IMG/VR virus record: IMGVR_UViG_3300012685_000001
Location: 1 to 64,000 of that record
DNA from: a virus
Direction: 5' to 3' (one strand)
DNA: 64,000 bases
The position numbers and the translations under genes were made by a program. The first letter of the stretch is position 1; each line of letters begins with the position of its first letter. Positions 1 to 60,196 of the stretch are shown piece after piece. The notes below the pieces were generated by a model. The model did not search any database. It saw only the letters and a program-made list of their open reading frames with translations, and had not been told where the DNA came from.

Positions 1-439
1 ACTCTTCAGTCAATCGCCACGGCTTGTCAAGGAGCTTGGCCATATTCTCAATGACCTTAACACCAACAGATCGTTCTCCACGTCCGGCACGGAGAATGTC
101 ACGAGCTGCACATGTCTGCATGGCAATATGAGTGAAGTCCTGAATCTTGAACAAAACATCACCATCAAAGAGATTCTTATAACGCTTAGGCATATTGGAA
201 CGCAGATGGGTATTATCCACAATGACATCCTTACCTGCGTCAACAGCGGCAAGGATAGCCTGATCCTGAATACTGAGCGCAATAGCCTCAGCATCCTTAC
301 TATAAGGAAGACTCAGCATCGCACGGATATCATCCATATTCACACGGACAATCTTACCGTTCGAATTCTCAACCTCTTCCTTAGCCCACATGCTCTTCCC
401 TGACGCCGGAAGCCCGTATGTCAGCGTGATCGTCTGCAC
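1..439 (-). CDS. Polynucleotide kinase (T4 PseT-like kinase domain), truncated by window start
   Basis: Not in ORF track. Manual translation from GTG at 439 after AGGAGG RBS: MQTITLTYGLPASGKSMWAKEE..IVRVNMDDIRAML..GKDVIVDNTHL. Walker A, R-x-x-x-D-D-x-R and DNT motifs typical of PNK. Confidence 0.85.
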   Translation of the reverse strand, partial: MQTITLTYGLPASGKSMWAKEEVENSNGKIVRVNMDDIRAMLSLPYSKDAEAIALSIQDQAILAAVDAGKDVIVDNTHLRSNMPKRYKNLFDGDVLFKIQDFTHIAMQTCAARDILRAGRGERSVGVKVIENMAKLLDKPWRLTEE

Positions 440-644
440 TCTTTCCTCCTTGATAAAAGTTCTTGGCATAAAGACCTGCGTACATTACACAGACCCAGAT
501 GAATCCATATTGATGAGTCATAACAGCATAGACAATCCAGAGGATCTGATATAAAAAACCTATAGCCCATCCCCATCTACTCTTTGCTGTTATATATACA
601 CCAAGGGCTCCAATCGCAGAGAGGAACCAGCTTGCTATCTCCAT
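381..644 (-). CDS. Small membrane protein, PnuC-like (nicotinamide riboside transporter-like)
   Basis: Three hydrophobic segments with K-x-R-W-G-W and W-x-x-Y-A..Q-Y-G-F patterns seen in short phage PnuC-like proteins; GGGGAG RBS. Confidence 0.55.
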   Translation of the reverse strand: MEIASWFLSAIGALGVYITAKSRWGWAIGFLYQILWIVYAVMTHQYGFIWVCVMYAGLYAKNFYQGGKSADDHADIRASGVREEHVG

Positions 645-733
645 TACTCCCCTAAGATAGATCCAAGAAGACCGGGGGACTCTCCGTTATACCTTGTGGT
701 TGCGGCACTACCCCCGACCCTGTTGAACTGACC

Positions 734-961
734 TTAGTTGTACTCACCCTCAGTTTCGTTATAGCCTTCGTCGTAACCACGTTCAAAGCCTATGTCAAAA
801 CCATCATCATAGGCTTCATCAGCAGCATACTTGAAATGCTTCTTAAGAAACTCAGCTATGGTCTCCTCAAGATTGATTGCACCATACGGATCATACGGAA
901 AAACTACACCGTAATCCTCAAGTTCAATCTTCAGTTCAGCAGCCACCTGATAAACATCCAT
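734..961 (-). CDS. Hypothetical acidic protein
   Basis: ORF coupled to neighbours by stop/start overlap. Confidence 0.6.
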   Translation of the reverse strand: MDVYQVAAELKIELEDYGVVFPYDPYGAINLEETIAEFLKKHFKYAADEAYDDGFDIGFERGYDEGYNETEGEYN

Positions 962-1197
962 CAGAACTCTTTCTCCTCGTTGTATTTAACAGCACACTTG
1001 TCCAGCACATCCATTACAGTGTCCATCTCAGTTTCGAAATCACCATAACGATCAGCCATGGTTTCCCATGCTTCCTTCAGTTCATCCGGAACATCGTAAT
1101 CATCAATGCTGCGCTCACCATAATCAAGAATTCCAGTGATACCACCCTCCCAGTCGATCTTTCCCAGAAGGTCGTAAATATTTCGTGATTCTGTCAT
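961..1197 (-). CDS. Hypothetical acidic protein
   Basis: ORF coupled by ATGA overlap. Confidence 0.65.
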   Translation of the reverse strand: MTESRNIYDLLGKIDWEGGITGILDYGERSIDDYDVPDELKEAWETMADRYGDFETEMDTVMDVLDKCAVKYNEEKEF

Positions 1198-1873
1198 ATA
1201 TTCTCAGTCTTTCGTGTATCAGGACCCACTATCACCAGCGGATCAAACGCATCATGTCGGAAACTGTCAAATGATTCACCATAAACCTCAGGAATTCTCG
1301 ACAGACTTACATTGGTAGTAGCGATAGTAGGCAACGCTCCCTCATACCGTACACGAAGAAGCTCATGAAGAGAAGACTCGGTAAAACCTGAAGCTGTACG
1401 GTGTTCCTGACCAATGTCATCCAAACACAGGAGATGAGCTTGTTCCACTTTACGCAGAACAGCCTTTGCTTTTACCTTGTTATCAGTATCTTCCTTCTCA
1501 AAAGTATCAGTAAGAGCCTTCTTCCAGTCGGAGAAACGAATATAATAAACCTTCCCTGCTGGATTCAGGTATTGAACTTCCGTCAGAAGAGTTGCCGCCA
1601 GAGTGGACTTGCGAGTACCATTACGGCCAACAAGAAGCAACCCCCGACCAATATTGTTTCGATTATCCGGGAATGTTCCTGCCTTTGCTCGTCTAGTCGA
1701 TATATAATGCTCTTCAAAATTCTCAACGAATTCCTGCGCCTTCTTCAGTGCGTGAATACCCGATGCGTGAACATGTTCGTAGTCCTTGAGAAGAAGCCCC
1801 CGAAACTTTACCGGAATGTTGGATACTTCCCACTGGCTCGCCCAATAACTAGGTGGAATCTTACCTATTGCCA
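1194..1873 (-). CDS. DnaC/IstB-like AAA+ ATPase (helicase loader)
   Basis: IPVKFRG N-terminal motif, variant Walker A GRNGTRKST, Walker B LLCLDDIG, LLRVRY..LPTIATTN; start placed at MAIGKIP. Confidence 0.8.
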
Positions 1874-47181: not shown

Positions 47182-47186
47182 CAACG

Positions 47187-47257: not shown

Positions 47258-47280
47258 AGGTGCCCCGAAGGGCTATTGAA

Positions 47281-47460
47281 TTATTTTCCCGGTTTCTTAT
47301 GAAACTCATCGCGCTTAACATTGCGAATCGTAACATCTTCAGAACCAGGGGTGTCATTCAGCGTAAGAGTATACTTATCACGCCTAATCGCACGAACTGT
47401 AGCAGGTCTACCCTTGTAGTGACCTCTGTCAATAACGACAACATCACCAACAATAATCAT
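47281..47460 (-). CDS. 59-aa KOW-motif protein
   Basis: Below ORF-track cutoff; AGGAG RBS; MIIVGDVVVIDRGHYKGRPATVRAI. Confidence 0.7.
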   Translation of the reverse strand: MIIVGDVVVIDRGHYKGRPATVRAIRRDKYTLTLNDTPGSEDVTIRNVKRDEFHKKPGK

Positions 47461-47468
47461 TATAACTC

Positions 47469-47645
47469 CTACTGCTTCTCAAGCTCTCCAGAACGATAAG
47501 TACGCTCAGCGCCCTTACTGGCACCAACACTTGCCTCTGTTGCCTTAACGGCAACAAGATCACGAGCTGAATCAACAGCTATAACCTTACCCACAAGGCC
47601 GTCAACAGCGCCTACCTTATCGCCAACATGAAGCTTCTTACCCAT
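47469..47645 (-). CDS. 58-aa SH3/KOW-like protein
   Basis: AGGAGG RBS; MGKKLHVGDKVGAVDGLVGKVIAVD..LVAVK. Confidence 0.65.
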   Translation of the reverse strand: MGKKLHVGDKVGAVDGLVGKVIAVDSARDLVAVKATEASVGASKGAERTYRSGELEKQ

Positions 47646-47668
47646 ATCATATCCTCCTTATTTGGAAG

Positions 47669-47746
47669 CGCCTCAGACAGGATTCGAACCTGCATACTCC
47701 GTTACCCTTTTAATGACCGGTTAGAAGCCGGGGGGGATACTAAGGC
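47669..47746 (-). tRNA. D-arm-less tRNA-Arg(TCT)-like RNA
   Basis: Normal acceptor and T arm; CCGG-CT-TCT-AA-CCGG nested in TCC/GGA and CCC/GGG stems; no 5' D loop. Confidence 0.65.
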
Positions 47747-47771
47747 AAGTCCGCCCGAAGGCGGGGTAATA

Positions 47772-47924
47772 CTAAAGCTTCTTAACAGGCACTGCAATAA
47801 CCGTGTGCATTCCGGTACGGACATCCTGAACCTCTACACCCTTAACGATCTTGGGAGCAGTCTCAACAGTTCCCGAGCCAACACCAGGAACATTCACCTT
47901 CGCGCCGACCGACTTCTTACCCAT
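47772..47924 (-). CDS. 50-aa SH3-like protein
   Basis: AAGGAG RBS; MGKKSVGAKVNVPGVGSGTV. Confidence 0.55.
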   Translation of the reverse strand: MGKKSVGAKVNVPGVGSGTVETAPKIVKGVEVQDVRTGMHTVIAVPVKKL

Positions 47925-47937
47925 TGCTTCTCCTTGG

Positions 47938-48405
47938 TTAGTCCCACCAGTAAGAACTATCATACTTGGAATCTGTGTGGGTGTCCACATCCCAGCAATC
48001 TTCTTCTGTGCAGCCACCATGGTCTCTGATGGCATTGTGCAGTACTTGTCTTATCTTAGAACGCTTGGCACCATTCGTCAAGCGCTTATAGTCCTTGTTA
48101 CTCTTCACATTGGGGTAATACTCAAGCCAGTAATGACAGTTCTTGTCACGTCTCCAACTATGGCCGCTGATCTCTGGAACATCAAGATCACAGTCTACCT
48201 GTTCAACGTGACATCTGAAAAGAGAACGCATGTACATCAACTCATCATGCCAGTGCCAGCCGTCTTTATCAAGAACGTAACGGTAAACTGGCTCTTCACC
48301 AATCTTTTCACGAATAGTAACAAGGTGATCATGACTAGCATAACGATCCATAGTGGGGTCATTCTTCATAACCCAATAAGGTCTGTCTTTACGAGTACGG
48401 GACAT
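47938..48405 (-). CDS. Hypothetical protein (MSRTRKDRPYWV N-terminus)
   Basis: GGAG RBS before ATG at 48405. Confidence 0.7.
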   Translation of the reverse strand: MSRTRKDRPYWVMKNDPTMDRYASHDHLVTIREKIGEEPVYRYVLDKDGWHWHDELMYMRSLFRCHVEQVDCDLDVPEISGHSWRRDKNCHYWLEYYPNVKSNKDYKRLTNGAKRSKIRQVLHNAIRDHGGCTEEDCWDVDTHTDSKYDSSYWWD

Positions 48406-48551
48406 TTCAACTCCCAAGGTAGTACTAAAGAAAAAATGTGCTTTGATCCGGAGCACTAACCGACCAGCTTGTATGTACGTGCTGGAACGCACTCTATGAC
48501 CTACGTGTTTAAATAGGGACAACCCTAGCATAGAACAGTCCTATGTCCCTG

Positions 48552-48623
48552 TAGTTCCAGGGAGACTCGAACTCCCACCAACGGCTTCGTAGGCCGGTAT
48601 GCTGTCCATTACACCATGGAACC
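48552..48623 (-). tRNA. tRNA-Arg(ACG)
   Basis: CGGC-CT-ACG-AA-GCCG. Confidence 0.88.
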
Positions 48624-48627
48624 AAAA

Positions 48628-48777
48628 TTACTGATGCTTCTTCTTATCGTGCTCTAATCGCATATACACTGCTACAGTTCTATAGAAATACCTATCAGAT
48701 ACAAATGTAGGATTACAAGCAATACAAGAAAATATGTATCTCTTATCCTCACCTTTACCTACTGAAGTTACTGCCAC
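48628..48777 (-). CDS. 49-aa CxxC...HxxxxH zinc-finger-like microprotein
   Basis: GTG overlapping upstream TAG; FSCIACN...EHDKKKH. Confidence 0.45.
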   Translation of the reverse strand: MAVTSVGKGEDKRYIFSCIACNPTFVSDRYFYRTVAVYMRLEHDKKKHQ

Positions 48778-49310
48778 TAGTTTCCCCGAACTTGCTTGGC
48801 AAGCTTACTATAGCCACGACGCTCATGCAAGTACTTTGTAAGCTTGCCTGGAGTCACAAGATACGGCGGAAGGTCTGTAAGAGATACACCTTCAGCATCA
48901 TAATCTGTTGCAACTAATTGAGAACAGATAAGATGATCAGAATCCTCAACGCGCTTAGAAATACCTGGATGTTTGATATGAAGACGATACAAAGCAATTG
49001 CTAAGTAATCAAGAAAACTATAAGGAATTCCCTTTTGATATATGGCTCTGGAAACAATATTATTACGTTGTATTGCTGTAAGGTGAATTAAATCAGTAGA
49101 CCACATGATAGCTCTACCATCGTACTCAGACAAATCAGATAATAAGGCACCACCAGGCATGGCTTCTACAATCTTCCCATTACCTACATAAATGAAGGCA
49201 TGCTCATAATTATAAAATCCATCTCCATTAAGAAATTGACCTAGGCGAATAAGAAAGCCTACGCCACCTTCAATGGATACTAAACCGAAATCCCCGGCAA
49301 TTGGTGCCAT
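48777..49310 (-). CDS. Permuted papain-like NlpC/P60 amidase (YiiX/YebB-like)
   Basis: HAFIYVG.G.IVEA, G.PY.F, ICSQLV (His before Cys); AGGAGG RBS. Confidence 0.8.
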   Translation of the reverse strand: MAPIAGDFGLVSIEGGVGFLIRLGQFLNGDGFYNYEHAFIYVGNGKIVEAMPGGALLSDLSEYDGRAIMWSTDLIHLTAIQRNNIVSRAIYQKGIPYSFLDYLAIALYRLHIKHPGISKRVEDSDHLICSQLVATDYDAEGVSLTDLPPYLVTPGKLTKYLHERRGYSKLAKQVRGN

Positions 49311-49330
49311 ATTTCCTCCTATTAGTAAAG

Positions 49331-49403
49331 TGATCCATGTCAGACTCGAACTGACGCGCTTCGGATTAAAAGTCCGCTGCTCTACCAACTGAGCTAATGG
49401 ATC
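49331..49403 (-). tRNA. tRNA-Lys(TTT)
   Basis: CGGA-CT-TTT-AA-TCCG. Confidence 0.9.
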
Positions 49404-49536
49404 ATGTGTCCATAAGAGACCCCCTTCGGGAACCGCATACAGGACTGGTATGGCCAGATCAGGTGCGCACGCTGTCTGGTAGGCAATTTACGGTACAAAG
49501 CCGTAGGGATTGTTCCTAGCTACACTATCTTAAAGT

Positions 49537-49986
49537 TTACTTACCAGTTCCAGCCTTGGCAGTAATGGTAGGAACACCAGCTTCACCAGAAGGAACATAG
49601 ATAACAGTGTTATTCTTACCAGACTTAGCAATACTTTCCATTGCCTGAATCATCTCGAACTGAACATAAAGAGGAGTCAGAGTCTTGGCAATCTCATCCT
49701 GAGCCTTACGAACACCTACAGACTGCTCATAGCGAATCTGAGCCTGCTGCTTTGTAACTTGAATACGCTGCTTCTGATTACGAATCTCAATATCCGTTAC
49801 CTTAACAGTATTATTCGCGTGAATCAATGCGATATTAGCGTTATTCTTAGCATCCGCAGTATTTTGACTACGACTGAATGCCTTGAAGCCTGCTGTAGCA
49901 CCCATGATAATACCTAGCAGAAGAAACAATCCAAGCGCGCCTGCCAGAACAATCCTGACACCATTCTTAAAATCTTCCTTGTCCAC
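49537..49986 (-). CDS. Membrane-anchored coiled-coil protein (band-7/SPFH C-terminal-like)
   Basis: N-terminal TM helix; IA.TLTP.Y.Q...I..VIYVP.G..G.P ending. Confidence 0.65.
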   Translation of the reverse strand: MDKEDFKNGVRIVLAGALGLFLLLGIIMGATAGFKAFSRSQNTADAKNNANIALIHANNTVKVTDIEIRNQKQRIQVTKQQAQIRYEQSVGVRKAQDEIAKTLTPLYVQFEMIQAMESIAKSGKNNTVIYVPSGEAGVPTITAKAGTGK

Positions 49987-50020
49987 TGTGCTCCCAATTA
50001 GTATTCCATTTAAACTAACG

Positions 50021-50103
50021 TGATTCGGGTGGGATTCGAACCCACGTAGGATTTCTCCGGCAGATTAAGAGTCTGCTCCAATTGGCCGCTCTGGCACCGA
50101 ATC
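50021..50103 (-). tRNA. tRNA with CTT (Lys) anticodon and long variable arm
   Basis: GCAGA-CT-CTT-AA-TCTGC; variable hairpin GGA-GAAA-TCC. Confidence 0.85.
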
Positions 50104-50150
50104 ATGTCCCGGTTCTTTCTTATAGGGGAACCGCGCTACTAAGACCCAAG

Positions 50151-50222
50151 TGGAGCTACGGGGACTCGAACCCCGAATTGAAGTATGCAAAACTTCCGTG
50201 TTACCGTTCACACTATAGCCCC
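50151..50222 (-). tRNA. tRNA-Ala(TGC)
   Basis: GAAGT-TT-TGC-AT-ACTTC; G3:U70. Confidence 0.9.
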
Positions 50223-50277
50223 ATTGTGAGGACTTAACCGGTCCTCAGCGGGTATAACTACTTTAGCAGACTAGATC

Positions 50278-51858
50278 TTACTTTGCAACCCAAGGCCACG
50301 TCTGTGATATTCCAGCTTCTATCAAAGGAATCATCTGGAAACCCTTGTCAGTCAGTCCACCAAAGGTGTGACGCTTCTTGGAACCAGATTCACTCTGGCC
50401 AACAGCATACCCTCCGAGGTTCCAGGTGTAGACAGGAACATTAGCAGGTACAGAAGCAACAGGATCTCCACCGTAACCATTGTACTGCTCATCAGTGATG
50501 ATCACAATACGGTCATGGTTCTTGAAGTTGCCGTTGACTGCTCCACGGGTATCAGTTCCACCCATGCTCTTGAACTTACTCAGCATAGGAAGAACAGACT
50601 GACCCTTACGGAAAGAAACTGTTTCGAAAGAAGGTCCACGCCATGCGTCACCAAACTGTACCAGATCTGCATTTTCAGCACGAAGTGCTAGTGCTGAACC
50701 AAAGATAGCAGCCGTGTCAGCTCTGTCAAGTCCCTGAGTTCCTCCGTTAGAAGTAAACATGGAACCAGAACGGTCAACCAGAACCAGTGTACGTCCCTTC
50801 AGAGAAGGCACATTGCTCAGAGAAGCCTCAAGGGCAGTCTCAAGCGCCGCAGCGATCTGAAGAGTATCCTTGTTGGCCTGGTAAGCAGCAAGGAATCGGA
50901 AAGGGAACTGCTTACTCTTGGCAACCTGCGCAGGATCAGCAAGTTTTGCAAGAACATTCTGCATCACTGGGACACTAATTCGGGCATCCTGGAAGTTCCG
51001 CAAGTTTCGAAGAAGTGCCATATATCCCATGGAAGGAATAACAGCTTCCCAGGCAACAGCATCCATAGGACCCTGAAGCCATCCGGAAAGAGCTTCCCAA
51101 GTCATTCCAGCATTCTTCATACGAGTAGCGTCCAGAAGGCCAGTAACTATTGCGCCCTTACGGTTTTCTACTGGAATACGCATTATATACTTTCGCGTAT
51201 TAATCATCTCTAGTACGCCTGGAACAATCTCTACATTTCCATAACGACTAGCAAGAGCGTACTTGAACAACTGCTCCTGAATCTCGTTATCAGGCTTAGG
51301 GTGAGTCAACTGAAGAACATCCGCGAAACGGTATCCCACAGAAGTATCGTACTTAAGAAGACTGTACTCGTTATACAACTTCTTGGCACCATCCGCAACA
51401 CCCTTCTTAAGGAAGGATGGGAAGTTCTTCCCGTACTTGGACTCGTAATAAGCCAGCACCTCACCAGGCTCATCAGCACGAGCCATAGAAGCGGCTACAA
51501 GGCCCCTAGGAGTCCCATTCAGCTGTCCTGAGTCCCAAAGGGCCTTGGCACCTTCTACACCCGCTACAATCGCCGCTGAACGCATGAAGGCAGAGTTACG
51601 AAGCCAATAGACGAAACCGGCAAACCAGAATGAATTAGTTACCGCTACTTCGGCACACAACTTGGAGAAACGGTCATCACGGCTCTTGGCGTTCTCATAG
51701 AACGTATCCTGACCGACAAAGTTGGAAACTGCTAGCAAGAACAACTCAGATTGCTTAGTGCGCACAAAACCTGCCTTGAAGTCAGCATTCAGTGCTGCCT
51801 GAGTAGTCTTGACAGGAGAAGTAGTTCCTGTCTTCTTTACCTGATTGAACTTGCCCAT
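50278..51858 (-). CDS. rsr: Ro60 / TROVE-domain RNA-binding protein with C-terminal vWA domain
   Basis: ELFLLAV..TFYE, RADEP, DVLQL.HPKP, TWEAL, MGYMALLRNLRN, SKQFPFRF, MIDAS DRSGSM, GGT, IITDEQ. Confidence 0.93.
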   Translation of the reverse strand: MGKFNQVKKTGTTSPVKTTQAALNADFKAGFVRTKQSELFLLAVSNFVGQDTFYENAKSRDDRFSKLCAEVAVTNSFWFAGFVYWLRNSAFMRSAAIVAGVEGAKALWDSGQLNGTPRGLVAASMARADEPGEVLAYYESKYGKNFPSFLKKGVADGAKKLYNEYSLLKYDTSVGYRFADVLQLTHPKPDNEIQEQLFKYALASRYGNVEIVPGVLEMINTRKYIMRIPVENRKGAIVTGLLDATRMKNAGMTWEALSGWLQGPMDAVAWEAVIPSMGYMALLRNLRNFQDARISVPVMQNVLAKLADPAQVAKSKQFPFRFLAAYQANKDTLQIAAALETALEASLSNVPSLKGRTLVLVDRSGSMFTSNGGTQGLDRADTAAIFGSALALRAENADLVQFGDAWRGPSFETVSFRKGQSVLPMLSKFKSMGGTDTRGAVNGNFKNHDRIVIITDEQYNGYGGDPVASVPANVPVYTWNLGGYAVGQSESGSKKRHTFGGLTDKGFQMIPLIEAGISQTWPWVAK

Positions 51859-51860
51859 TC

Positions 51861-52064
51861 CTATTCTCCTATTTTCTCGAAGCGCTGCATACGCTTGCCA
51901 TCACGTTCTACATACTCAACAAACTCATCCAAGGGACGCACTGAAATAATACCTTCTCCGTATTGCGCTGCATAAACTACCACATCTCTCCAGGAGCCAC
52001 TTTCCTTTGCAAGGAACAGGACTCTATAAAGATTTCCCTTAAAATGTCTGTACAGCCCATGCAT
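51861..52064 (-). CDS. DUF1653-like SH3-fold protein
   Basis: G.YRHFKG..Y.V, VVVY, VRP..EF, RF. Confidence 0.85.
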   Translation of the reverse strand: MHGLYRHFKGNLYRVLFLAKESGSWRDVVVYAAQYGEGIISVRPLDEFVEYVERDGKRMQRFEKIGE

Positions 52065-52149
52065 TGTACCTCCTATTTGTAGTACGTTATAAAGACAAAA
52101 ATAATCCCCTAAAGTGCACTTTCGTGGACCTAGGGGAGGATTAAAAATA

Positions 52150-52258
52150 AGTTCCTAGAAAAAACGGTGTGAGGTATATAGGCGCCGTGCCTTAAGGGGA
52201 CTCGAACCCCATGGGTTTCATATCAATTGAAGTAACCCCGTACCTTCGCATCGGAACT
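52150..52258 (-). ncRNA. Y RNA-like gene C (Ro-binding stem plus isolated T arm)
   Basis: Shared CGATGCGAAG..GTTACTTCA and TTTCTAG terminal stem; internal GGGG-TTCGAGT-CCCC. Confidence 0.75.
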
Positions 52259-52266
52259 AAAAAATA

Positions 52267-52341
52267 TACCCTAGAAAAAACGCCTACAGTGCTTTTTGAT
52301 TACCAATTAATTTGAAGTAACTGTTGGCTACGCATCGGGTA
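52267..52341 (-). ncRNA. Y RNA-like gene B (Ro-binding stem only)
   Basis: CGATGCGTAG..GTTACTTCA and TTTCTAG stem closed by short AU-rich loop. Confidence 0.72.
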
Positions 52342-52359
52342 AAGCTTATTAAATTTTAA

Positions 52360-52500
52360 GACAACTAGAAAGAATCGATAAAAGTGCTTTATATACCGCT
52401 GCTCTGCCTCTGAGCTATCAACCATAGAATTGGCTGAGAAGGATTCGAACCTTCGTCACGCGGTTCCCTGTGAAGTAACTCTTATCTTCGCATCGCTGTC
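52360..52500 (-). ncRNA. yrlA: YrlA-type Y RNA A (Ro-binding stem plus full permuted tRNA-like domain)
   Basis: Terminal stem; ACCGC..T arm GAAGG-TTCGAAT-CCTTC; closed acceptor TCAGCCA/TGGTTGA; D arm TAGCTCAGAGGCAGAGC; GCGGT; next to Ro60. Confidence 0.85.
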
Positions 52501-52568
52501 AAACTTAATAGATCTAGGCTCGGTTTCGACGTATCGCAAGATACCCTTGACAGCGTTCAAGATCTAAG

Positions 52569-52640
52569 CTCCCCGAGCTGGATTCGAACCAACAACCGGT
52601 CGATTAACAGTCGACTGCTCTGCCGTTGAGCTATCGGGGA
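52569..52640 (-). tRNA. tRNA-Asn(GTT)
   Basis: GTCGA-CT-GTT-AA-TCGAC. Confidence 0.92.
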
Positions 52641-52676
52641 ATAAACTCTATCCACAAGGAATAGAGTGGGTTAAAG

Positions 52677-52747
52677 CATGAGCTAGAGGATTTGAACCCC
52701 TGATGGCGGTTTTGGAGACCGACGTGTTACCACTACACTAAGCTCAT
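52677..52747 (-). tRNA. tRNA-Trp(CCA)
   Basis: CGGT-CT-CCA-AA-ACCG. Confidence 0.9.
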
Positions 52748-52763
52748 ATAGCCCGAAGGCTTT

Positions 52764-52970
52764 TTACTTAATGGAATTAACTACACCCGTTAATCCATCA
52801 TTTACAGCACTAGGCAACTTAGGGAAATTCGATACTAGCAGAATTCCCAACATAGCACCAGCTACAATCTGTGCCAGCTTCCAACCCTGCTTAAGAATCA
52901 TAACCCAAATGAAAAGGCCCATAAGTCCAACAGTTCCCAGAAAAGCTAGCAATGCATGTACGATATCCAT
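52764..52970 (-). CDS. Small two-helix membrane protein
   Basis: Hydrophobic 68-aa ORF. Confidence 0.65.
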   Translation of the reverse strand: MDIVHALLAFLGTVGLMGLFIWVMILKQGWKLAQIVAGAMLGILLVSNFPKLPSAVNDGLTGVVNSIK

Positions 52971-53045
52971 TTTTAACCCCTAGAAAGTTCTTGTCGTTCT
53001 CTCTTGTAGAGAAGCTTACTAAGAGTCTGTGGTACTTGTCAAGCG

Positions 53046-53119
53046 TACCCACGGGGAGACTCGAACTCCCAAGCTCCTGAGCCTAAATCAGACGGCTGTG
53101 CCAATTCGCCTACGCGGGC
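53046..53119 (-). tRNA. tRNA-Leu(TAG), short variable loop
   Basis: TCTGA-TT-TAG-GC-TCAGG. Confidence 0.87.
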
Positions 53120-53197
53120 ATAACGACAGTTTTTCTGAAGCCCAACTTAATGGATGCTGTGCTCTTACTCTTCAGAGGGCAAACTGTCAACCTCACG

Positions 53198-53270
53198 TAG
53201 TCCTAGTCGGATTCGAACCGACGCTGTCTCGATTTTAAGTCGAGTGTCTCTTCCGCTGGACTATAGGACC
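53198..53270 (-). tRNA. tRNA-Leu(TAA), short variable loop
   Basis: CTCGA-CT-TAA-AA-TCGAG. Confidence 0.88.
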
Positions 53271-53276
53271 AAGATG

Positions 53277-53350
53277 TACTCCTGGTCGGACTTGAACCGA
53301 CACTAACATAGTTTTTGAAACTATGGCCTCTGCCTTTGGGCTACAGGAGC
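53277..53350 (-). tRNA. tRNA-Leu(CAA), short variable loop
   Basis: ATAGT-TT-CAA-AA-ACTAT. Confidence 0.88.
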
Positions 53351-53494
53351 ATAAGTGACTGTCTGGATTCTCAATCCAGCGCCACTACACAGGTCTTTAG
53401 CGTTTAGTCGGATCATATCTTGGCTTTTATTGTACCCCGGAAGTACCTTCCAAGTCAAGACGACCGTGCCAGGAGTTACTGTGCAGAACCTAAG

Positions 53495-53566
53495 AGCCCC
53501 TTCCCGGATTCGAACCGAGCACTTGGCTTTACAAGAGCCGCGCTTTTCCTACTAAGCTAAAGGGGC
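53495..53566 (-). tRNA. tRNA-Thr(TGT)
   Basis: GGCT-CT-TGT-AA-AGCC. Confidence 0.88.
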
Positions 53567-53603
53567 AAGAGCCATTGTACTAGCCCAATGGCAGGCTGTC
53601 AAA

Positions 53604-53918
53604 TTATGCTGTTCCAGTAGCCTTTACCACAAAGTCAACAGTATCGTTGATTGTGGCCTGGTTTGGAAGAGCGAAAATAGAAGCGTTGTTCACATAAATT
53701 GTCCATAGGACAGAAGTATTGGTAACAGGATTACCCGCACTATCAGTTCCAGGTGGAACATCAGCGGCTACGATCTTCTTAACTGTAGAAGGAAAAGAAG
53801 CACCACCAGTTGTAGGAACTGGGAACACATAAGCATGTCCATCAGCACATACAATAGCACGAACCTGATCATTCACAGCAAGAGCATCAGCCTTGACAAT
53901 CGTATAAGTAAAAGCCAT
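53604..53918 (-). CDS. Hypothetical protein
   Basis: 104-aa ORF between tRNAs with AAGG RBS. Confidence 0.65.
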   Translation of the reverse strand: MAFTYTIVKADALAVNDQVRAIVCADGHAYVFPVPTTGGASFPSTVKKIVAADVPPGTDSAGNPVTNTSVLWTIYVNNASIFALPNQATINDTVDFVVKATGTA

Positions 53919-53994
53919 TTGTTAAACCTTTCTAGAAAGAATCACTAAGTGATCGCTATAGCTCTTTTAGTATATAGCATTTCTTTCTGAAACG

Positions 53995-54066
53995 TACTCC
54001 CAGAGGGAATTGAACCCTCTCCTAGGGCTTGAAAGACCCTGATACTAACCAATATACGATGGGAGC
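53995..54066 (-). tRNA. tRNA-Glu(TTC)
   Basis: AGGGT-CT-TTC-AA-GCCCT. Confidence 0.88.
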
Positions 54067-54263
54067 ATAACTATTGGTACTGGTAGGGCTTGCCAGTTTC
54101 GAACCTGAGCCTTTATTTCAGAATATCCAATAGTATCCGAGTCTAGTCCCACACATACTTCCTCGGTTTGCAGCATCTGACAGGCAGCCTATCTCTATTT
54201 TGGCTAGCAGTCTGTAGGAACCGATAGTCCCCCAGCGTCTTTGAGACCTGTCAGGTGTGATGC

Positions 54264-54337
54264 TGGTATCCCTACAGGGACTTGAACCCTGTCTAGAAGC
54301 TTGAGAAGCTTCCGTACTACCTATATACGATAGGGAC
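54264..54337 (-). tRNA. tRNA-Glu(CTC), CCA encoded
   Basis: GAAGC-TT-CTC-AA-GCTTC. Confidence 0.88.
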
Positions 54338-54519
54338 ATTAAATGGCTGGTGGTCTCATCCCTTGTGACTACTTAGTTCCGCCACAAACTAAGGTTACTC
54401 CCACCTGGCGGCACCTGCCCTGTCTCTCGCCGCTTCTCAACACGGACAACCATCGGATGGATGATAATTGCCAGCACTCCTCGTCTTCCTTGTGGGAAGA
54501 ACTGTCCATCACGTGCACG

Positions 54520-54591
54520 CGCCCCATACGGGAATTGAACCCGCCGATTCAAGCGTGACAAGCTTGTGACCACCCAGCAGTCTCATGGGGC
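54520..54591 (-). tRNA. tRNA-Asp(GTC)
   Basis: CAAGC-TT-GTC-AC-GCTTG; G73. Confidence 0.85.
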
Positions 54592-54624
54592 AACAAAGTG
54601 CCCTTTAAGGTAGGACACAAACCT

Positions 54625-54927
54625 TTACTTCTTTAAATCTGTCTCAGGCCACGATAATATCGCCCTTTGCTCAACAACCGTACCATGGTTAACTACAGCT
54701 CGGGAAATATCTGAATAATCTTCGCCATACCGCAGAATTATCAAGTAGTTGTTGGGATAAAGCTTAGCAACCTCTTCCAGATCTGTCAACCAGGCATACC
54801 ATTTGGAAGCTGACAGAGTTATATTTTCCTGCCACTCATCCCACTTGTAGCCAGAAGCACCATTGAGAACATCAGCTACAAAAGGTATATCTGTTCCATC
54901 TACTTCAAAATTTGAGTAATAACCCAT
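54625..54927 (-). CDS. Hypothetical protein
   Basis: AGGAG RBS; MGYYS.F..KWY..GED pattern. Confidence 0.7.
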   Translation of the reverse strand: MGYYSNFEVDGTDIPFVADVLNGASGYKWDEWQENITLSASKWYAWLTDLEEVAKLYPNNYLIILRYGEDYSDISRAVVNHGTVVEQRAILSWPETDLKK

Positions 54928-54944
54928 ATTTATCTCCTAACGCG

Positions 54945-55016
54945 CTGGAGTACTAGGATTCGAACCTAGACTGTCCTGATCCAAAGTCAGGTGGGCTGCC
55001 GTTACCCCATACTCCA
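54945..55016 (-). tRNA. tRNA-Gln(TTG)
   Basis: CCTGA-CT-TTG-GA-TCAGG; U1-A72. Confidence 0.9.
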
Positions 55017-55313
55017 AAGTGGTCCCTCGTGAGTGCCTTACCAAGATAATAGTCTTGACGCACTGCTTTTCAGTATCTTCCCGGCACTTTCCCACACCTT
55101 TACCATGGTTATTACATGTGTTCCAGATTCGTTCTTTTCCCAATTCTGTACGAGCGTTTAACAACTCTACCTGCCAAAAGATAGAGTAAATGGTTGGACG
55201 TAGCTTGGCTTATCCCCAAGTTTCGACCTTGTCTTCATTTGCAACTTATCTAGAAAACGGCAAACTATCATCCGGCTTATCCTTGCTCTTGTGCACTGAG
55301 CTTTGGCGTCCAG

Positions 55314-55384
55314 CTCCCCGACCTAGATTCGAACTAAGTCTAACGGTGTCAGAGACCGTTGTGCTGCCGTTACACCATCGGGGA
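55314..55384 (-). tRNA. tRNA-Gln(CTG)
   Basis: ACGGT-CT-CTG-AC-ACCGT; U1-A72. Confidence 0.9.
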
Positions 55385-55489
55385 ATAAACTAGGTGCGGA
55401 TTATAAATACCTTTATCGCTCCAGAAGAGCAGTTGGTCCCTAGCAACCAAAAATAGTGCCCTGCTATTACTAGCTGTTTATGGGCTAAG

Positions 55490-55562
55490 AGCGGTATGCC
55501 AGATTCGAACTGGCTCTTATAGTTTGGAAGACTATCGTGCTGCCGTTGAACACTAATACCGC
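55490..55562 (-). tRNA. tRNA-Gly(TCC)
   Basis: ATAGT-CT-TCC-AA-ACTAT; U73. Confidence 0.9.
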
Positions 55563-55669
55563 ATTGTATGGATTTTTATTGACCGTGCTTCCCCGCAGGG
55601 GCTAGACTTCCATGTCGTATGACCTACCATACTTCAGACACACTAGGTCGTCAAACTGATCGAATTGGG

Positions 55670-55742
55670 AGCGCAGGTGGGAGTCAAACCCTACTACTTT
55701 CCAGGTTATGAGCCTGGTGAGACATCGTTTCTCTATCCGCGC
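55670..55742 (-). tRNA. tRNA-Met(CAT), atypical, possibly initiator-like
   Basis: CCAGG-CT-CAT-AA-CCTGG; D loop lacks GG and T loop is TTTGACT. Confidence 0.7.
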
Positions 55743-55744
55743 AG

Positions 55745-55816
55745 TGGTTATGAAGGGACTCGAACCCTCGCGTACCGGGATATGAATCCGGCGCTCTGCC
55801 TCTGAGCTACATAACC
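55745..55816 (-). tRNA. tRNA-Met(CAT), elongator-type
   Basis: CCGG(A)-TT-CAT-AT-(C)CCGG. Confidence 0.85.
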
Positions 55817-55870
55817 ATAATCATGGTTTTTTATTGTGTTCCGCTACGGGATAACCATAAACCCGTAAAG

Positions 55871-55941
55871 TGGCCCCCACCGGACTTGAACCGATATTCA
55901 GCGGGCTTCAACCGCTTGTATTTCCTTTATACGAAAGAGCC
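55871..55941 (-). tRNA. tRNA-Phe(GAA)
   Basis: AGCGG-TT-GAA-GC-CCGCT. Confidence 0.87.
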
Positions 55942-56020
55942 ATAATGAGTTATTACCTGGTATTGAACATCATATCTATTATTTATTATGAGGATGTATA
56001 TACGTGCTGATAACTCAAAG

Positions 56021-56092
56021 TCGGATGCCTCAGAGTCGAACTGAGTTTATCTTGGTCCCAAACCAAGCGGATTACCGTCTTCCTCGCACCCG
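56021..56092 (-). tRNA. tRNA-Pro(TGG)
   Basis: CTTGG-TT-TGG-GA-CCAAG; C1-G72, A73. Confidence 0.9.
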
Positions 56093-58017: not shown

Positions 58018-58248
58018 ACCAGCAATACTGCTGGACGAAGATGTTCCACAATGGAAAACTGATAGCACTGCATTCCTGATGCAATAAGGAGAGACTGAAG
58101 TATGGAAGACTCTAAAAAAGATAAGGTCCGCAAGGGGGACCATTACTGTTCCCGTTGTGATAAATTTCTTCGTATCTGGCAGACATGCAAGCATAATCCG
58201 ACAATACTGAAAAGAGACCGGATATGGTAATTTCGAAAAGTTGTCACA

Positions 58249-58890
58249 ATGTCTAGGCCTACTATTCTCCTAGACGTTGACGGGCCTCTGAATCCATGGA
58301 GTGCCCGTCATGGGCTTCCAGAGGGGTATACAGAGCATTTGATGCGTCCTAGGGGCTGGGAGACGGGTAAGCCTCTGAAAGTCCGTCTACGGGCTTCTGA
58401 CGGCTTCAAACTTCAGAAGCTGGATTGTGAACTGATATGGGCTACCGCGTGGGAAGAAGAAGCCAATAAATGGATCGGTAAAGAAATAGGTCTTCCGGAA
58501 CTTCCCCATATCGACTGGACAGACAAGAATCACTGGAATATTGAACGACTCCACTGGAAAACAAAGAGAATCGTCCAGTGGATGAACGAGAACAGACCAG
58601 GAATCCCGTTTATCTGGCTCGATGACGAAGTAACAAAGCGAGATCGTCTCTGGATTGCTGATTCTTGCGCAAAAGGAAGCACTATTTTGCTGATTAATCC
58701 AAAAACAGGGCTGGAAGACGAATATTTCGAAAGAATTAAGGCATGGAAGAACTATATGGTTCTAGAAAATCTTAGAAAAACTATAGAAACTATTCCGGAC
58801 GGGCGTAAAGAAGAGATTCGTAAGGATATAAGAACTTTTCACGATAAGCATGGGAGACCTGGCGATGAAGTTAACAGCAAGAACCCCTGA
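58249..58890 (+). CDS. HAD-family phosphatase (Swiss-army-knife RNA-repair-like HAD)
   Basis: LLDVDGPLNP, LIWATAW, K, PFIWLDD motifs. Confidence 0.8.
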   Translation: MSRPTILLDVDGPLNPWSARHGLPEGYTEHLMRPRGWETGKPLKVRLRASDGFKLQKLDCELIWATAWEEEANKWIGKEIGLPELPHIDWTDKNHWNIERLHWKTKRIVQWMNENRPGIPFIWLDDEVTKRDRLWIADSCAKGSTILLINPKTGLEDEYFERIKAWKNYMVLENLRKTIETIPDGRKEEIRKDIRTFHDKHGRPGDEVNSKNP

Positions 58891-59209
58891 ACTGCTGGAA
58901 TATGCGTTCAAACTGTTCAAGATTCCCGCCCAGATCAGAGATCTACCCAAAAATAGTCTCTACAAGGTTCTTTTGGACTATGGAATTCAAGCAGATCCTG
59001 AGGTAATCGACGAATGGAAAGACAGTGCTTGCTAAGCGATTGATCGAAATTCTAAGTAAGTTCCCTGATTACAGGGTCCAGATAGAGACAGAGACACTTA
59101 TTACGGACATTGACAGAGTCGAAGTGGATTGTTTCGACAGAGATGACAGTTTTGTATTTGTTATTGTCCCCGATTTTGAGGCCTGATGAACAGGAACAGG
59201 GAAATAGAG

Positions 59210-59469
59210 TGAATTACGGGGAAGAATACGATCTTACTGTCTATATGGATGGTATAGATGTGAAAGATGTAGCTGCTGCGGCCAGAAGACTCGATGCTAC
59301 ATCTTTCTTCAGAAATCAGATGTCTCATGAAAAGTTCCAGAAGAGTATTCAGAGAACTGATGAAGAACTCTTCGCCGAAAGAGAGAAATTCCGTATTCAG
59401 GAAGAAAAAGAACGTAAAGAACTAGCAGTTCAGAAACTATTGGCAATCAGAGATTCCTGGGGGCAGTAA
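59210..59469 (+). CDS. Hypothetical protein (start uncertain)
   Basis: Distal part of ORF 59110-59469. Confidence 0.5.
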
Positions 59470-59632
59470 GTGGCTAAGCGTGAATGGGAACCAGTAGAAG
59501 AACTTCCGGACGGTAAGTGTATTGCTTACAACAACAGAACAAAGCGCTGGTACCTCTACAACAAGCGAAGCGTACTCATTACATCCAACAGAAAGAAGCA
59601 AGTACTACTGGACTGGAAAGAAGGAGAATAAC

Positions 59633-60196
59633 TTGAACATTTACTACGACTGCGAATTCCTGGAAGACGGAAATACTATCCGGTTAATCAGTATAGGAAT
59701 GATCAGGGAAGACGGTACGAAGTTATACAGAATTGTCGAAGACAACCAGTTGATGGTTGATGTATGGCATCACGACTGGCTGAGAGAAAATGTTGCACCT
59801 TCTCTTCCTGTATCCGCAGAATACGAGATGCACGACCTTGACGGTACGTACAAGCCTCTAGTAGTGTGGGAGACGGCACATCCGGACTACAAATATGTAG
59901 CACCAAGAGAGAAGATCAGAGAAGACATAAAGAGATTTGTACTCGATACACCAGATCCACATCTATGGGCTTACTATTCCGCATACGATCATGTAACTCT
60001 CTGCCAGTTGTTCGGCCGCATGATCGATCTTCCCACAGGCTTTCCCATGTACACCAATGATCTGAAGCAAGAAGTGGTAAGACTGGGTAATCCGCAGCTT
60101 CCCCAGCAGAAATCGGGGGAACACAATGCATTGGAGGACGCTTTGTGGAACAAGGAAGTAATGGAATATCTCCTGAGTTATCAGGACAAGTGGTAG
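59633..60196 (+). CDS. DEDDh 3'-5' exoribonuclease (Rv2179c/RNase AS-like)
   Basis: AAGGAG + TTG start; YYDCEFLEDG.TI.LISIG, WAYY.AYD.V.L.QLFG.M..LP, HNAL.DA.W. Confidence 0.88.
   Translation: MNIYYDCEFLEDGNTIRLISIGMIREDGTKLYRIVEDNQLMVDVWHHDWLRENVAPSLPVSAEYEMHDLDGTYKPLVVWETAHPDYKYVAPREKIREDIKRFVLDTPDPHLWAYYSAYDHVTLCQLFGRMIDLPTGFPMYTNDLKQEVVRLGNPQLPQQKSGEHNALEDALWNKEVMEYLLSYQDKW

What the first reader, a model, noticed from the sequence alone, without database searches (positions are those of the whole stretch)
1..60196. Dispersed phage RNA repair and quality-control toolkit around a tRNA/tRNA-mimic island
Seen: PNK (1-439), metallophosphoesterase, Rnl1 RNA ligase directly downstream of the tRNA array, Ro60 with three Y RNAs, a mini-tmRNA, a full tRNA set, a HAD phosphatase and a DEDDh exoribonuclease. 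Established: T4 PNK plus Rnl1 repair anticodon-nuclease-cut tRNA, and bacterial Ro60/Y RNA act on damaged structured RNA, often beside the RtcB ligase. Inference: the phage combines replacement, healing/sealing, triage and decoying to defeat tRNA-targeting host defences, with Rnl1 possibly taking the place of RtcB.
Basis: partly seen in the sequence, partly recalled or inferred. Interest (0 to 1): 0.8.

Follow-up and report, generated by a model that had tools for sequence, protein, structure and literature searches.

The report
Phage tRNA island with RNA-repair genes
A 113-kb soil phage related to Streptomyces phage BRock carries about 31 tRNA genes together with tRNA-repair enzymes, a Ro60 protein with three Y RNAs and a stripped-down tmRNA; every part is real, but this kind of kit has already been described in other large phages.

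Summary
Observation confirmed. The window is the first 64 kb of a complete 113,467-bp virus record related to Streptomyces phage BRock (Borockvirus).

Parts found:
- A T4-type Pnkp, which runs across the record origin.
- A calcineurin-type metallophosphoesterase and a T4-type Rnl1, just downstream of a minus-strand array of 28 clear tRNAs plus 3 atypical ones.
- Ro60 preceded by three Y RNAs.
- An 82-nt tmRNA-like RNA that has only the tRNA-like domain (TLD).
- A stand-alone HAD_SAK_2 phosphatase and an Rv2179c-type DEDDh exoribonuclease.

Catalytic motifs are intact. The RNA structures are supported by compensatory changes.

Interpretation only partly supported. [quoted passage not shown] is already the published model for jumbo phages (PMC7824862).

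The co-occurrence test shows inheritance within the BRock-like clade but independent assortment elsewhere:
- Rnl1 occurs in 5 of 12 Ro60-phage lineages and RtcB in 1 of 12.
- More than 130 Streptomyces phage records have Rnl1, although only 13 have Ro60.
- The TLD-only RNA occurs in complete 44-48 kb phages that have neither ligase.
- The phage is 44.6% GC, with 62% A/T at third codon positions, so codon supply explains the tRNA set at least as well.

Verdict: a new member of a known kind, of moderate interest. The most notable by-product is that the TLD-only RNA, previously named only for phage DS6A, forms a wider, largely unannotated family.

The parts
1..469 (-). 5' part of a T4-type polynucleotide kinase-phosphatase (Pnkp). 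The likely start is GTG at 439. The gene continues across the record origin to record 112875.
   Evidence: AAA_33 E 2.4e-12. P-loop GLPASGKS aligned to T4 Pnk 1LTQ/1LY1. C-terminal HAD_PNKP E 8.7e-38 with DTDGT aligned to DLDGT of Pnkp1 4XRP. 123-bp terminal repeat. SD + GTG.
41076..41543 (-). MazG/PRA-PH-like nucleotide pyrophosphohydrolase. It is syntenic with the ligase block in BRock.
   Evidence: PF01503 E 2.2e-14. BRock gp162 lies next to the metallophosphatase.
41701..42759 (-). Calcineurin-type metallophosphoesterase, two genes downstream of Rnl1.
   Evidence: PHROG 221 E 1.4e-48. Pfam match is below cut-off. Motifs GD..H, GDESDN, SNH, GHGH and GHVH are seen in the translation. Conserved next to Rnl1 in G001, G002, G004 and BRock.
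43424..44479 (-). T4-type RNA ligase 1 (Rnl1).
   Evidence: PF09511 at 51.3 bits. PHROG 562 E 7.7e-76 over the full length. T4 Rnl1 2C5U E 3.7e-10, with KxDGS and KxK aligned.
44990..56092 (-). tRNA island: 28 ARAGORN tRNAs plus atypical Ser(UGA) at 45952-46038, Cys(GCA)-like at 46597-46671 and Arg(UCU)-like at 47669-47746.
   Evidence: BRock annotates tRNA-Cys and tRNA-Arg(tct) at the syntenic places.
47028..47109 (-). TLD-only tmRNA-like RNA: an Ala-type acceptor stem (G3:U70, A73), a stemless D-loop analogue, a 6-bp P2-like helix closing a conserved ~20-nt loop, and a T arm. It has no conserved tag frame.
   Evidence: 6 phages, 92.6% of cells paired, 13/18 pairs compensatory. 22 distinct copies, 99.2% paired, G3:U70 invariant. 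Model R1 hits phage DS6A at 67.9 bits. DS6A is reported as 'TLD only' (PMC4131195).
47110..47185 (-). Permuted tRNA-like hairpin (T arm followed by D arm, closed by a 9-bp helix) between tRNA-Val and the TLD RNA.
   Evidence: The closing helix covaries between the window, L004 and BRock (alignment A1; read by eye).
50278..51858 (-). Ro60 (TROVE + vWA).
   Evidence: TROVE at 62.7 bits; VWA_2 at 25.1 bits. PHROG 850 E 4.9e-48. phiLo Ro60 9KOP E 7.5e-22; Rsr 2NVO E 2.7e-5.
51861..52064 (-). DUF1653 gene lying between the Y RNAs and Ro60.
   Evidence: PF07866 E 9.9e-22. No room for it upstream of Ro60 in the relatives compared.
52360..52500 (-). Y RNA 1 (141 nt), with a YrlA-type tRNA-like module.
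   Evidence: YrlA model positions 23-85 matched at 31.4 bits, below the gathering score of 69. Shared end motifs and covarying lower stem.
52267..52341 (-). Y RNA 2 (75 nt), stems only.
52150..52258 (-). Y RNA 3 (109 nt), with a T-arm-bearing module. It is followed by a hairpin and a run of T.
58249..58890 (+). Stand-alone HAD phosphatase of the 'Swiss Army Knife' RNA-repair family.
   Evidence: PF18143 at 41.3 bits against a cut-off of 27.5. N-terminal DVDG. Present in G001, G002 and G004, absent from BRock.
59522..60196 (+). Rv2179c-type DEDDh 3'-5' exoribonuclease.
   Evidence: PF16473. PDB 4OKE/4HEC E ~3e-24, with DxE and H..D aligned. Same distribution among relatives as the HAD gene.

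Best explanation
The window belongs to a low-GC (44.6%), 113-kb BRock-like phage, probably of an actinobacterium. Its accessory region has accumulated several separately known RNA modules. Each most likely works by its own established paradigm rather than as one co-evolved machine.

1. About 31 tRNAs covering all 20 amino acids supply codons that a high-GC host reads poorly. Incidentally, they can replace host tRNAs that are cut.
2. Pnkp (5' kinase and 3' phosphatase) and Rnl1 heal and seal tRNAs broken in the anticodon loop, as in T4. The calcineurin-type phosphoesterase and the stand-alone HAD-SAK phosphatase are possible extra end-cleaners.
3. Ro60 binds the conserved bulged stem of three Y RNAs. 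Their variable modules, one of them a YrlA-type tRNA mimic, probably tether a host exoribonuclease such as PNPase to structured or damaged RNA.
4. The 82-nt TLD-only tmRNA-like RNA has alanine identity elements but no message. It most likely binds SmpB and so interferes with, or diverts, host trans-translation.

Shown here: gene identities, intact motifs, RNA structures, synteny and distribution. Inferred: every activity and every target.
For: - Family assignments and catalytic motifs.
- The same gene order is found in BRock, pSt2308, Alone3 and three IMG/VR relatives: tRNAs, then Y RNAs, Ro60, more tRNAs, thioredoxin, Rnl1, metallophosphoesterase and MazG.
- Y RNA lower stems keep pairing through 17 distinct sequences in 30 units from 7 phage records, two of them near-identical. 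Mean length is 5.7 bp, against 2.1 when the strands are re-paired at random.
- TLD RNA structure and its match to DS6A. It shares the GGUUUCGAC and GGAC signatures with the tag-bearing tmRNA of phage CeilingFan.
- Independent assortment of the modules.
- Codon bias: 62% A/T at third positions, AGA 31% of Arg codons, ATA 14% of Ile codons.
- Published models: PMC7824862, PMC4201824, PMC12135203, PMC4131195.
Against: - There is no experimental evidence for this phage or its relatives.
- The host is unknown. An actinobacterial host is inferred only from the hosts of relatives.
- Block inheritance within the clade is equally compatible with a functional unit.
- T4 Rnl1 also has a tail-fibre attachment role, and PHROG 562 carries that name.
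- The metallophosphoesterase has no assigned substrate, and its Pfam match is below the cut-off.
- SmpB binding and alanylation of the TLD RNA are untested. The idea that TLD-only molecules inhibit tmRNA is taken second-hand from PMC4131195.
Confidence: 0.65

Rival explanations
1. This is a coordinated anti-defence machine. Ro60 and the Y RNAs triage damaged tRNAs and hand them to Pnkp and Rnl1, with Rnl1 standing in for the RtcB that accompanies Ro60 in bacteria. The tRNA mimics and the TLD RNA act as decoys for tRNA-targeting nucleases.
For: - All parts lie in one genome, and the core (Ro60, Y RNAs, Rnl1, phosphoesterase, Pnkp) is kept in every complete BRock-like relative.
- RtcB is absent from this genome.
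- In Salmonella, Ro60 and its Y RNAs are associated with the RtcB repair system; PMC4201824 names the RNAs, and one search shows only the abstract of PMC7790460.
- Rnl1 is present in 5 of 12 Ro60-phage lineages, against 1,144 of 50,697 phage records overall.
- In phage Kela an 'RNA ligase' gene lies directly next to Ro60.
Against: - Rnl1 is 6 kb and some 14 tRNA genes away from Ro60, and Pnkp is about 50 kb away.
- In Atuin, phiLo, phiTY18 and LR745206 the two genes lie between about 26 kb and 230 kb apart.
- 6 of the 12 Ro60 lineages have neither Rnl1 nor RtcB.
- Rnl1, Pnkp and tRNA arrays are common without Ro60.
- The TLD RNA is common without any of these ligases.
- The apparent enrichment is not corrected for genome size.
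Confidence: 0.2
2. The tRNA island is simply codon-usage compensation for a low-GC phage in a high-GC host. The other genes are unrelated cargo, for example DNA-end processing by Pnkp and the phosphoesterase, and tail-fibre attachment by Rnl1.
For: - Genome GC is 44.6%, third codon positions are 62% A/T, and the phage tRNAs mostly read A/U-ending codons.
- Pnkp sits at the end of the replication module, next to DnaB, primase and an SNF2 helicase.
- PHROG 562 carries the tail-fibre name.
Against: - Rnl1, the phosphoesterase and the tRNA array are contiguous and co-directional in all relatives.
- The Pnkp and Rnl1 pairing recurs next to tRNA arrays in unrelated Streptomyces phages.
- Ro60, the Y RNAs and the TLD RNA have no codon-supply role.
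Confidence: 0.15

Closest known systems
RNA-repair complement of jumbo phages (Iyer et al. 2021, PMC7824862, building on Burroughs & Aravind 2016)
   Same: The component list is the same: phage tRNAs, an ATP-dependent RNA ligase (Rnl1), PNK fused to a HAD phosphatase, a stand-alone 'Swiss-army-knife' HAD phosphatase, a calcineurin-like phosphoesterase, and a TROVE protein with a tRNA-like RNA partner.
   Different: This phage is 113 kb, not a jumbo phage. It has no RtcB. It also carries three Y RNAs and a TLD-only tmRNA-like RNA; the word tmRNA does not occur in that paper.
Streptomyces phage BRock (Borockvirus, NC_048650) and its relatives pSt2308, GiJojo, Alone3 and LuckySocke
   Same: The island is syntenic: MazG, metallophosphatase, Rnl1, tRNAs, thioredoxin and Ro-like protein. 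Ro60 is 62-64% identical. Pnkp is present. Four to five Y RNA units and the TLD RNA are present but unannotated.
   Different: There is no nucleotide-level match beyond short stretches. BRock lacks the HAD_SAK_2 and exoribonuclease cassette. The window has 3 Y RNAs rather than 4-5, plus a DUF1653 insertion.
T4 Pnkp + Rnl1 tRNA healing and sealing
   Same: The domain architecture and catalytic motifs of both enzymes match T4.
   Different: The two genes are about 43 kb apart. No PrrC-type target is known in the (unknown) host. Activity is untested.
Ro60 with YrlA-type Y RNAs (Chen et al. 2014, PMC4201824; phage phiLo Ro60, PMC12135203)
   Same: Y RNAs are encoded next to Ro60. A 5'/3' stem flanks an internal loop holding a CGAA motif. 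One module has the T arm, acceptor-like hairpin and D arm in the YrlA order.
   Different: The Rfam YrlA gathering score is not reached (31.4 against 69). The conserved end motifs (CGAUGCG..UUACUUC, UUUUUCUAG) are particular to this phage group. The units come in arrays of 3-5 with graded modules.
TLD-only tmRNA of mycobacteriophage DS6A (Hudson et al. 2014, PMC4131195)
   Same: A model built only from the BRock-like copies finds one DS6A site at 67.9 bits, against 37 bits or less for tRNAs. That site has the same helices and the same conserved loop.
   Different: The DS6A copy is unannotated in GenBank, so its identity with the published tmID was inferred, not checked. DS6A has RtcB and no Ro60. 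This phage has Rnl1 and Ro60.

Membership tests
T4 RNA ligase 1 (Rnl1, PF09511) | Pfam score above the gathering cut-off | tested here: met
   51.3 bits against 28.3.
T4 RNA ligase 1 (Rnl1, PF09511) | Motif I lysine (KxDG) and motif V (KxK) | tested here: met
   tdKmDGS aligns with tKeDGS, and lKiKqadY with fKiKsdwY, of 2C5U.
T4 RNA ligase 1 (Rnl1, PF09511) | C-terminal tRNA-specificity domain | tested here: inconclusive
   The PDB alignment ends at residue 256 of 351. PHROG 562 aligns the full length.
T4 polynucleotide kinase-phosphatase (Pnkp) | N-terminal P-loop kinase | tested here: met
   GLPASGKS aligns with GCPGSGKS of 1LY1/1LTQ.
T4 polynucleotide kinase-phosphatase (Pnkp) | C-terminal DxDxT HAD phosphatase on the same polypeptide | tested here: met
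   HAD_PNKP E 8.7e-38. DTDGT aligned. One open frame runs across the origin.
Ro60 / TROVE | TROVE domain followed by a vWA domain | tested here: met
   TROVE at 62.7 bits. VWA_2 at 25.1 bits, just under its cut-off of 27. Homology to phiLo Ro60 and Rsr structures.
Ro60 / TROVE | Y RNA partner encoded next to the gene | tested here: met
   Three units lie 290-640 nt upstream.
YrlA Y RNA (RF02553) | Rfam gathering score | tested here: not met
   31.4 bits against 69. Only model positions 23-85 are matched, and only in Y1.
YrlA Y RNA (RF02553) | Terminal stem and internal loop with a CGAA motif, plus a tRNA-like module | tested here: met
   CGAA is present in Y1 and Y3 (CGUA in Y2). Stems covary. 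The tRNA-like module is aligned.
tmRNA (RF00023 / ARAGORN) | Detected by the standard models | tested here: not met
   ARAGORN makes no call at default settings. The Rfam tmRNA model prefers tRNA-Ala and does not report the element.
tmRNA (RF00023 / ARAGORN) | TLD hallmarks: G3:U70, A73, stemless D-loop analogue, GGAC before the T arm | tested here: met
   G3:U70 is invariant in 22 distinct copies. The other signatures were compared by eye with the annotated CeilingFan tmRNA.
tmRNA (RF00023 / ARAGORN) | Resume codon, tag reading frame with a stop, and pseudoknots | tested here: not met
   The 7-codon frame seen in the window has no stop in the relatives read by eye (BRock, L004, pSt2308). Only about 20 nt lie between the P2 strands.
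TLD-only tmRNA (phage DS6A type) | Same RNA family as the DS6A element | tested here: met
   Model R1 gives 67.9 bits, E 6e-18, and a single hit in DS6A.
Calcineurin-like metallophosphoesterase | Profile match and metal-binding motifs | tested here: met
   PHROG 221 E 1.4e-48. The Pfam match is below cut-off. Motifs were read.
HAD_SAK_2 (PF18143) | Pfam score above the cut-off and an N-terminal DxD nucleophile | tested here: met
   41.3 bits against 27.5. LLDVDGP.
Rv2179c-like DEDDh exoribonuclease | DEDD motifs with the final H..D | tested here: met
   yyDcEF and eHnaleDA align to 4HEC/4OKE at E ~3e-24.

The most novel reading that the evidence does not exclude
In BRock-like phages the island is a single translation-protection system. 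Ro60 is programmed by a graded series of Y RNAs and captures nuclease-damaged tRNAs for Pnkp and Rnl1. This would be an RtcB-independent version of the bacterial Ro60-Rtc repair link. Meanwhile an alanine-chargeable, message-less tmRNA blocks host trans-translation, so that stalled ribosomes are kept for phage use.
Probability: 0.12. Interest if true: 0.7.

Novelty: new member of a known kind. Interest (0 to 1): 0.38.

Why it matters
It shows that the full RNA-repair and tRNA-provision kit described for jumbo phages also exists in a mid-sized actinophage group with cultivable members: BRock, Alone3, GiJojo and pSt2308. The long-standing question of what phage Ro60 and Y RNAs do could therefore be tested genetically in Streptomyces.

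A by-product is that the 'TLD-only tmRNA', previously named for a single phage, is a conserved structured RNA. It was found in at least 30 viral contigs and is unannotated in the GenBank records examined.

The distribution data caution against reading co-residence as a functional unit.

Tried and rejected
- Relaxed ARAGORN tmRNA calls across the island gave dozens of overlapping 'permuted tmRNA' hits, which are noise.
- The short frame GCC GCA CGU CGG ACG GGC UGA inside the window's TLD RNA was considered as a mini tag. It was rejected because the relatives read (BRock, L004, pSt2308) have no in-frame stop.
- The Rfam tmRNA, permuted-tmRNA and tRNA-Sec models give only weak or wrong matches to the element.
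- The spacer at 54067-54263 ends in ..CCCUACCA and has a T-arm-like hairpin, so it was considered as the tmRNA. Its acceptor pairing fails and it was set aside as an unexplained conserved spacer.
- A BLAST search of a 91-nt stretch of pSt2308, overlapping only the last third of its TLD copy, found only itself. A covariance model was needed instead.
- Megablast of 10 kb of the island found no close phage record.
- A phmmer search of the phosphoesterase against the PDB found nothing useful.
- Burroughs & Aravind 2016 could not be read because it is not held.
- A formal enrichment test of Ro60 with Rnl1 was not possible. The search tool lists at most 60 records, and no genome-size-matched background was available.

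Full report
**What the window is.** The window is bases 1-64000 of a 113,467-bp IMG/VR virus record rated 100% complete. Its first 123 bases are repeated at its end, so the record origin is arbitrary. Genome GC is 44.6%. Megablast finds no close phage record. Protein searches and gene order place it beside Streptomyces phage BRock (Borockvirus) and pSt2308, GiJojo, Alone3 and LuckySocke, with Ro60 62-64% identical. It also sits beside IMG/VR contigs of 111 kb, with Ro60 73-81% identical. Bases 4.4-39.5 kb are mainly long minus-strand ORFs, of which only the large terminase at 37867-39453 was identified. The rest of the genome holds lysis, replication and nucleotide-metabolism genes.

**Protein parts.**
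- Pnkp starts at 469, or more likely at GTG 439 behind AGGAGG. It runs across the origin as one open frame of 312 codons counted from ATG 469, about 302 from GTG 439. The P-loop kinase aligns to T4 Pnk. The DxDxT phosphatase gives HAD_PNKP E 8.7e-38 and aligns to Pnkp1 and T4 Pnk.
- Rnl1 (43424-44479, minus) passes the Pfam cut-off. It matches PHROG 562 over its full length. The motif I lysine and motif V lysines of T4 Rnl1 are kept.
- The metallophosphoesterase (41701-42759, minus) is weak in Pfam but strong in PHROGs (E 1.4e-48) and shows the calcineurin-type motifs.
- Ro60 (50278-51858, minus) has a TROVE domain and a vWA-like domain. Its best solved relative is the Ro60 of Thermus phage phiLo.
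- HAD_SAK_2 (58249-58890, plus) and the Rv2179c-type DEDDh exoribonuclease (59522-60196, plus) pass their cut-offs. The exoribonuclease aligns to 4OKE/4HEC with its DxE and H..D motifs.
- RtcB is absent from the whole genome.
- A second, small ligase of family PF09414 lies next to RecA at genome 93945-94571.

**tRNAs.** ARAGORN tRNAs for 19 amino acids, all on the minus strand between 44990 and 56092. Three further genes are atypical:
- Ser(UGA) at 45952-46038.
- A Cys(GCA)-like gene at 46597-46671.
- An Arg(UCU)-like gene at 47669-47746, with an Rfam tRNA score of 28.3 against a gathering score of 29.

BRock annotates tRNA-Cys and tRNA-Arg(tct) at the syntenic places. 'Full set' is therefore fair, with that caveat. 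Only 2 of the 28 encode CCA.

**Y RNAs.** Three units lie between tRNA-Asn and the DUF1653 and Ro60 genes, at 52500..52360, 52341..52267 and 52258..52150.
- Each unit begins with a lower-stem strand followed by CGAUGCG(N)AG, an upper-stem strand and (G)UUACUUC. Each ends with the matching upper-stem strand, UUUUUCUAG and the matching lower-stem strand.
- Relatives carry 3-5 such units.
- Over 30 units in 7 phage records, two of them near-identical, the lower stem keeps pairing through 17 different sequences. Mean stem length is 5.7 bp, against 2.1 bp when the strands are re-paired at random. My script picked a wrong 3' end for Y3 in the window and in L004; the correct stem AGUUCC/GGAACU was read by hand.
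- Y1's module aligns to the tRNA-like part of Rfam YrlA at 31.4 bits, below the gathering score of 69.
- This fits published descriptions of bacterial and phage Y RNAs (PMC4201824; PMC12135203).

**The 'mini-tmRNA'.** No standard tool calls a tmRNA. At 47028-47109 (minus) there is an 82-nt RNA with these features:
- A 7-bp acceptor stem with G3:U70 and A73.
- A stemless GG..UCGA segment.
- A 6-bp helix closing a conserved ~20-nt loop.
- GAC (GGAC in most relatives) before a normal T arm.

It is conserved in six BRock-like genomes, with 92.6% of cells paired and 13 of 18 pairs showing compensatory change. The short frame seen in the window has no stop in the relatives I read (BRock, L004, pSt2308), so there is no conserved tag.

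A covariance model built from the six copies scores tRNAs at 37 bits or less. It finds one site in mycobacteriophage DS6A at 67.9 bits. DS6A is the one phage reported to carry a 'TLD only' tmRNA, and similar molecules are said to inhibit tmRNA, perhaps by titrating SmpB (PMC4131195).

The annotated, tag-bearing tmRNA of Streptomyces phage CeilingFan shares the GGUUUCGAC and GGAC signatures. A pattern scan followed by the model found 30 IMG/VR contigs with strong matches. These give 22 distinct sequences (one of them a tRNA-like 36-bit row), 99.2% paired, with G3:U70 invariant; that alignment is fitted to the model. I therefore file the element as a TLD-only tmRNA-like RNA, not as a tmRNA.

Within the clade:
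- Ro60, Rnl1, the phosphoesterase and Pnkp are present in every complete relative.
- The HAD_SAK_2 and exoribonuclease cassette is in the IMG/VR relatives but not in BRock.

I sampled 12 Ro60-phage lineages: BRock-like, Atuin, VanLee, Neville, Kela/Satis, LR745206, phiLo, the Xanthomonas 43-kb phages, Brevundimonas, Microcystis, crAss001 and phiTY18. Across these:
- Rnl1 is in 5, a Pnkp-type phosphatase in 5 (all actinophages) and RtcB in 1.
- Where Rnl1 is present outside the clade, it lies between about 26 kb and 230 kb from Ro60.
- The steadier neighbour of Ro60 is tRNA genes or tRNA-like calls, seen in most lineages.

In the other direction:
- Rnl1 is in 1,144 phage records, 133 of them Streptomyces phages, while only 13 Streptomyces records have Ro60. 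CeilingFan is an example: it has tRNAs, Rnl1, polynucleotide kinase, a tmRNA and a metallophosphatase but no annotated Ro60 in the stretch viewed, and it is not among the Ro60-bearing Streptomyces phages listed.
- The TLD-only RNA is found in complete 44-48 kb phages and a provirus that have neither RtcB nor Rnl1. RtcB is in 0 of 33 contigs and Rnl1 in at most 2 of 33.

So co-occurrence is not shown beyond phylogeny. The 5/12 figure is not corrected for genome size.

**Alternative for the tRNA set.** In 50 long ORFs, 62% of third codon positions are A or T. AGA is 31% of Arg codons, ATA 14% of Ile codons and UUA 7% of Leu codons. Most phage tRNAs read such codons. If the host is a high-GC actinobacterium, as the relatives' hosts suggest, codon supply explains the set without invoking defence.

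**Comparison with the literature.** Iyer et al. 2021 describe the following for jumbo phages: tRNA provision, RtcB/Rnl1/Rnl2 ligases, polynucleotide kinases, 2H and calcineurin-like phosphoesterases, PNK-fused and stand-alone 'Swiss-army-knife' HAD phosphatases, and a TROVE protein with a tRNA-like partner. They present this as a counter to host attacks on translation. The present island is that kit in a 113-kb actinophage, with a TLD-only tmRNA-like RNA added. GenBank already annotates the RNA ligase, Ro-like protein and metallophosphatase in the relatives. The Y RNAs and the TLD RNA are not annotated there.

**Verdict.** This is a new member of a known kind.

Noticed in passing
window 47110-47185 (-): A permuted tRNA-like hairpin lies directly between tRNA-Val and the TLD RNA. 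It has a T arm followed by a D-arm-like hairpin, closed by a 9-bp helix. The helix changes sequence but keeps pairing in the window, L004 and BRock. The hairpin is absent at this place in G002, pSt2308 and Alone3.
   Followed up: partly
window 47669-47746 (-): An Arg(UCU)-like tRNA without a normal D arm. Its Rfam tRNA score is 28.3 against a gathering score of 29, and it is 92.5% identical to a copy in L005. It would be the only reader of AGA, which makes up 31% of Arg codons in long ORFs.
   Followed up: partly
window 46597-46671 (-): A Cys(GCA)-like tRNA with an odd, long D region and a weak T stem. It is not called by ARAGORN. It is conserved in L004, pSt2308 and Alone3, and BRock annotates a tRNA-Cys at the syntenic place.
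   Followed up: partly
window 54067-54263 (-) and other spacers between 53120 and 56019: Spacers between tRNAs are strongly conserved with L004 (92-100% identity), and some also with L007 and BRock. They contain no credible ORF, so further structured RNAs are possible.
   Followed up: no
IMG/VR loci L050-L084: The TLD-only tmRNA-like RNA (model R1, 67-98 bits) is present in 30 viral contigs. These include complete 44-48 kb phages and a provirus that lack both RtcB and Rnl1. It forms a conserved RNA family that Rfam does not detect.
   Followed up: partly
L022 7774-7847 (Streptomyces phage Alone3): A 'tRNA-Ser(gct)' annotated just upstream of Ro60 falls inside the last Y RNA unit. It is probably that unit's tRNA-like module and not a tRNA. 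tRNAs annotated right next to Ro60 in VanLee and Microcystis phage Mvi-JY20 may be similar cases.
   Followed up: no
window 51861-52064 (-): A DUF1653 gene sits between the Y RNAs and Ro60 in this phage. In the relatives compared, the space upstream of Ro60 is taken up by Y RNAs and a terminator-like hairpin, leaving no room for it.
   Followed up: partly
genome 93945-94571 (-), outside the window (L040:9945-10571): A second, 208-aa ligase of family PF09414 lies next to RecA in the replication module.
   Followed up: no
window 47938-49986 (-): Three ORFs of 149-203 aa lie inside the tRNA island and have no Pfam match. One matches PHROG 1128 ('enoyl-CoA hydratase/carnithine racemase-like'). Relatives annotate a peptidase and TerD- or CobT-like proteins there.
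   Followed up: no
JN698994 (phage DS6A) 49369-50496: DS6A, the phage with the published TLD-only tmRNA, encodes an RtcB ligase but no Ro60, Rnl1 or Pnkp phosphatase.
   Followed up: partly
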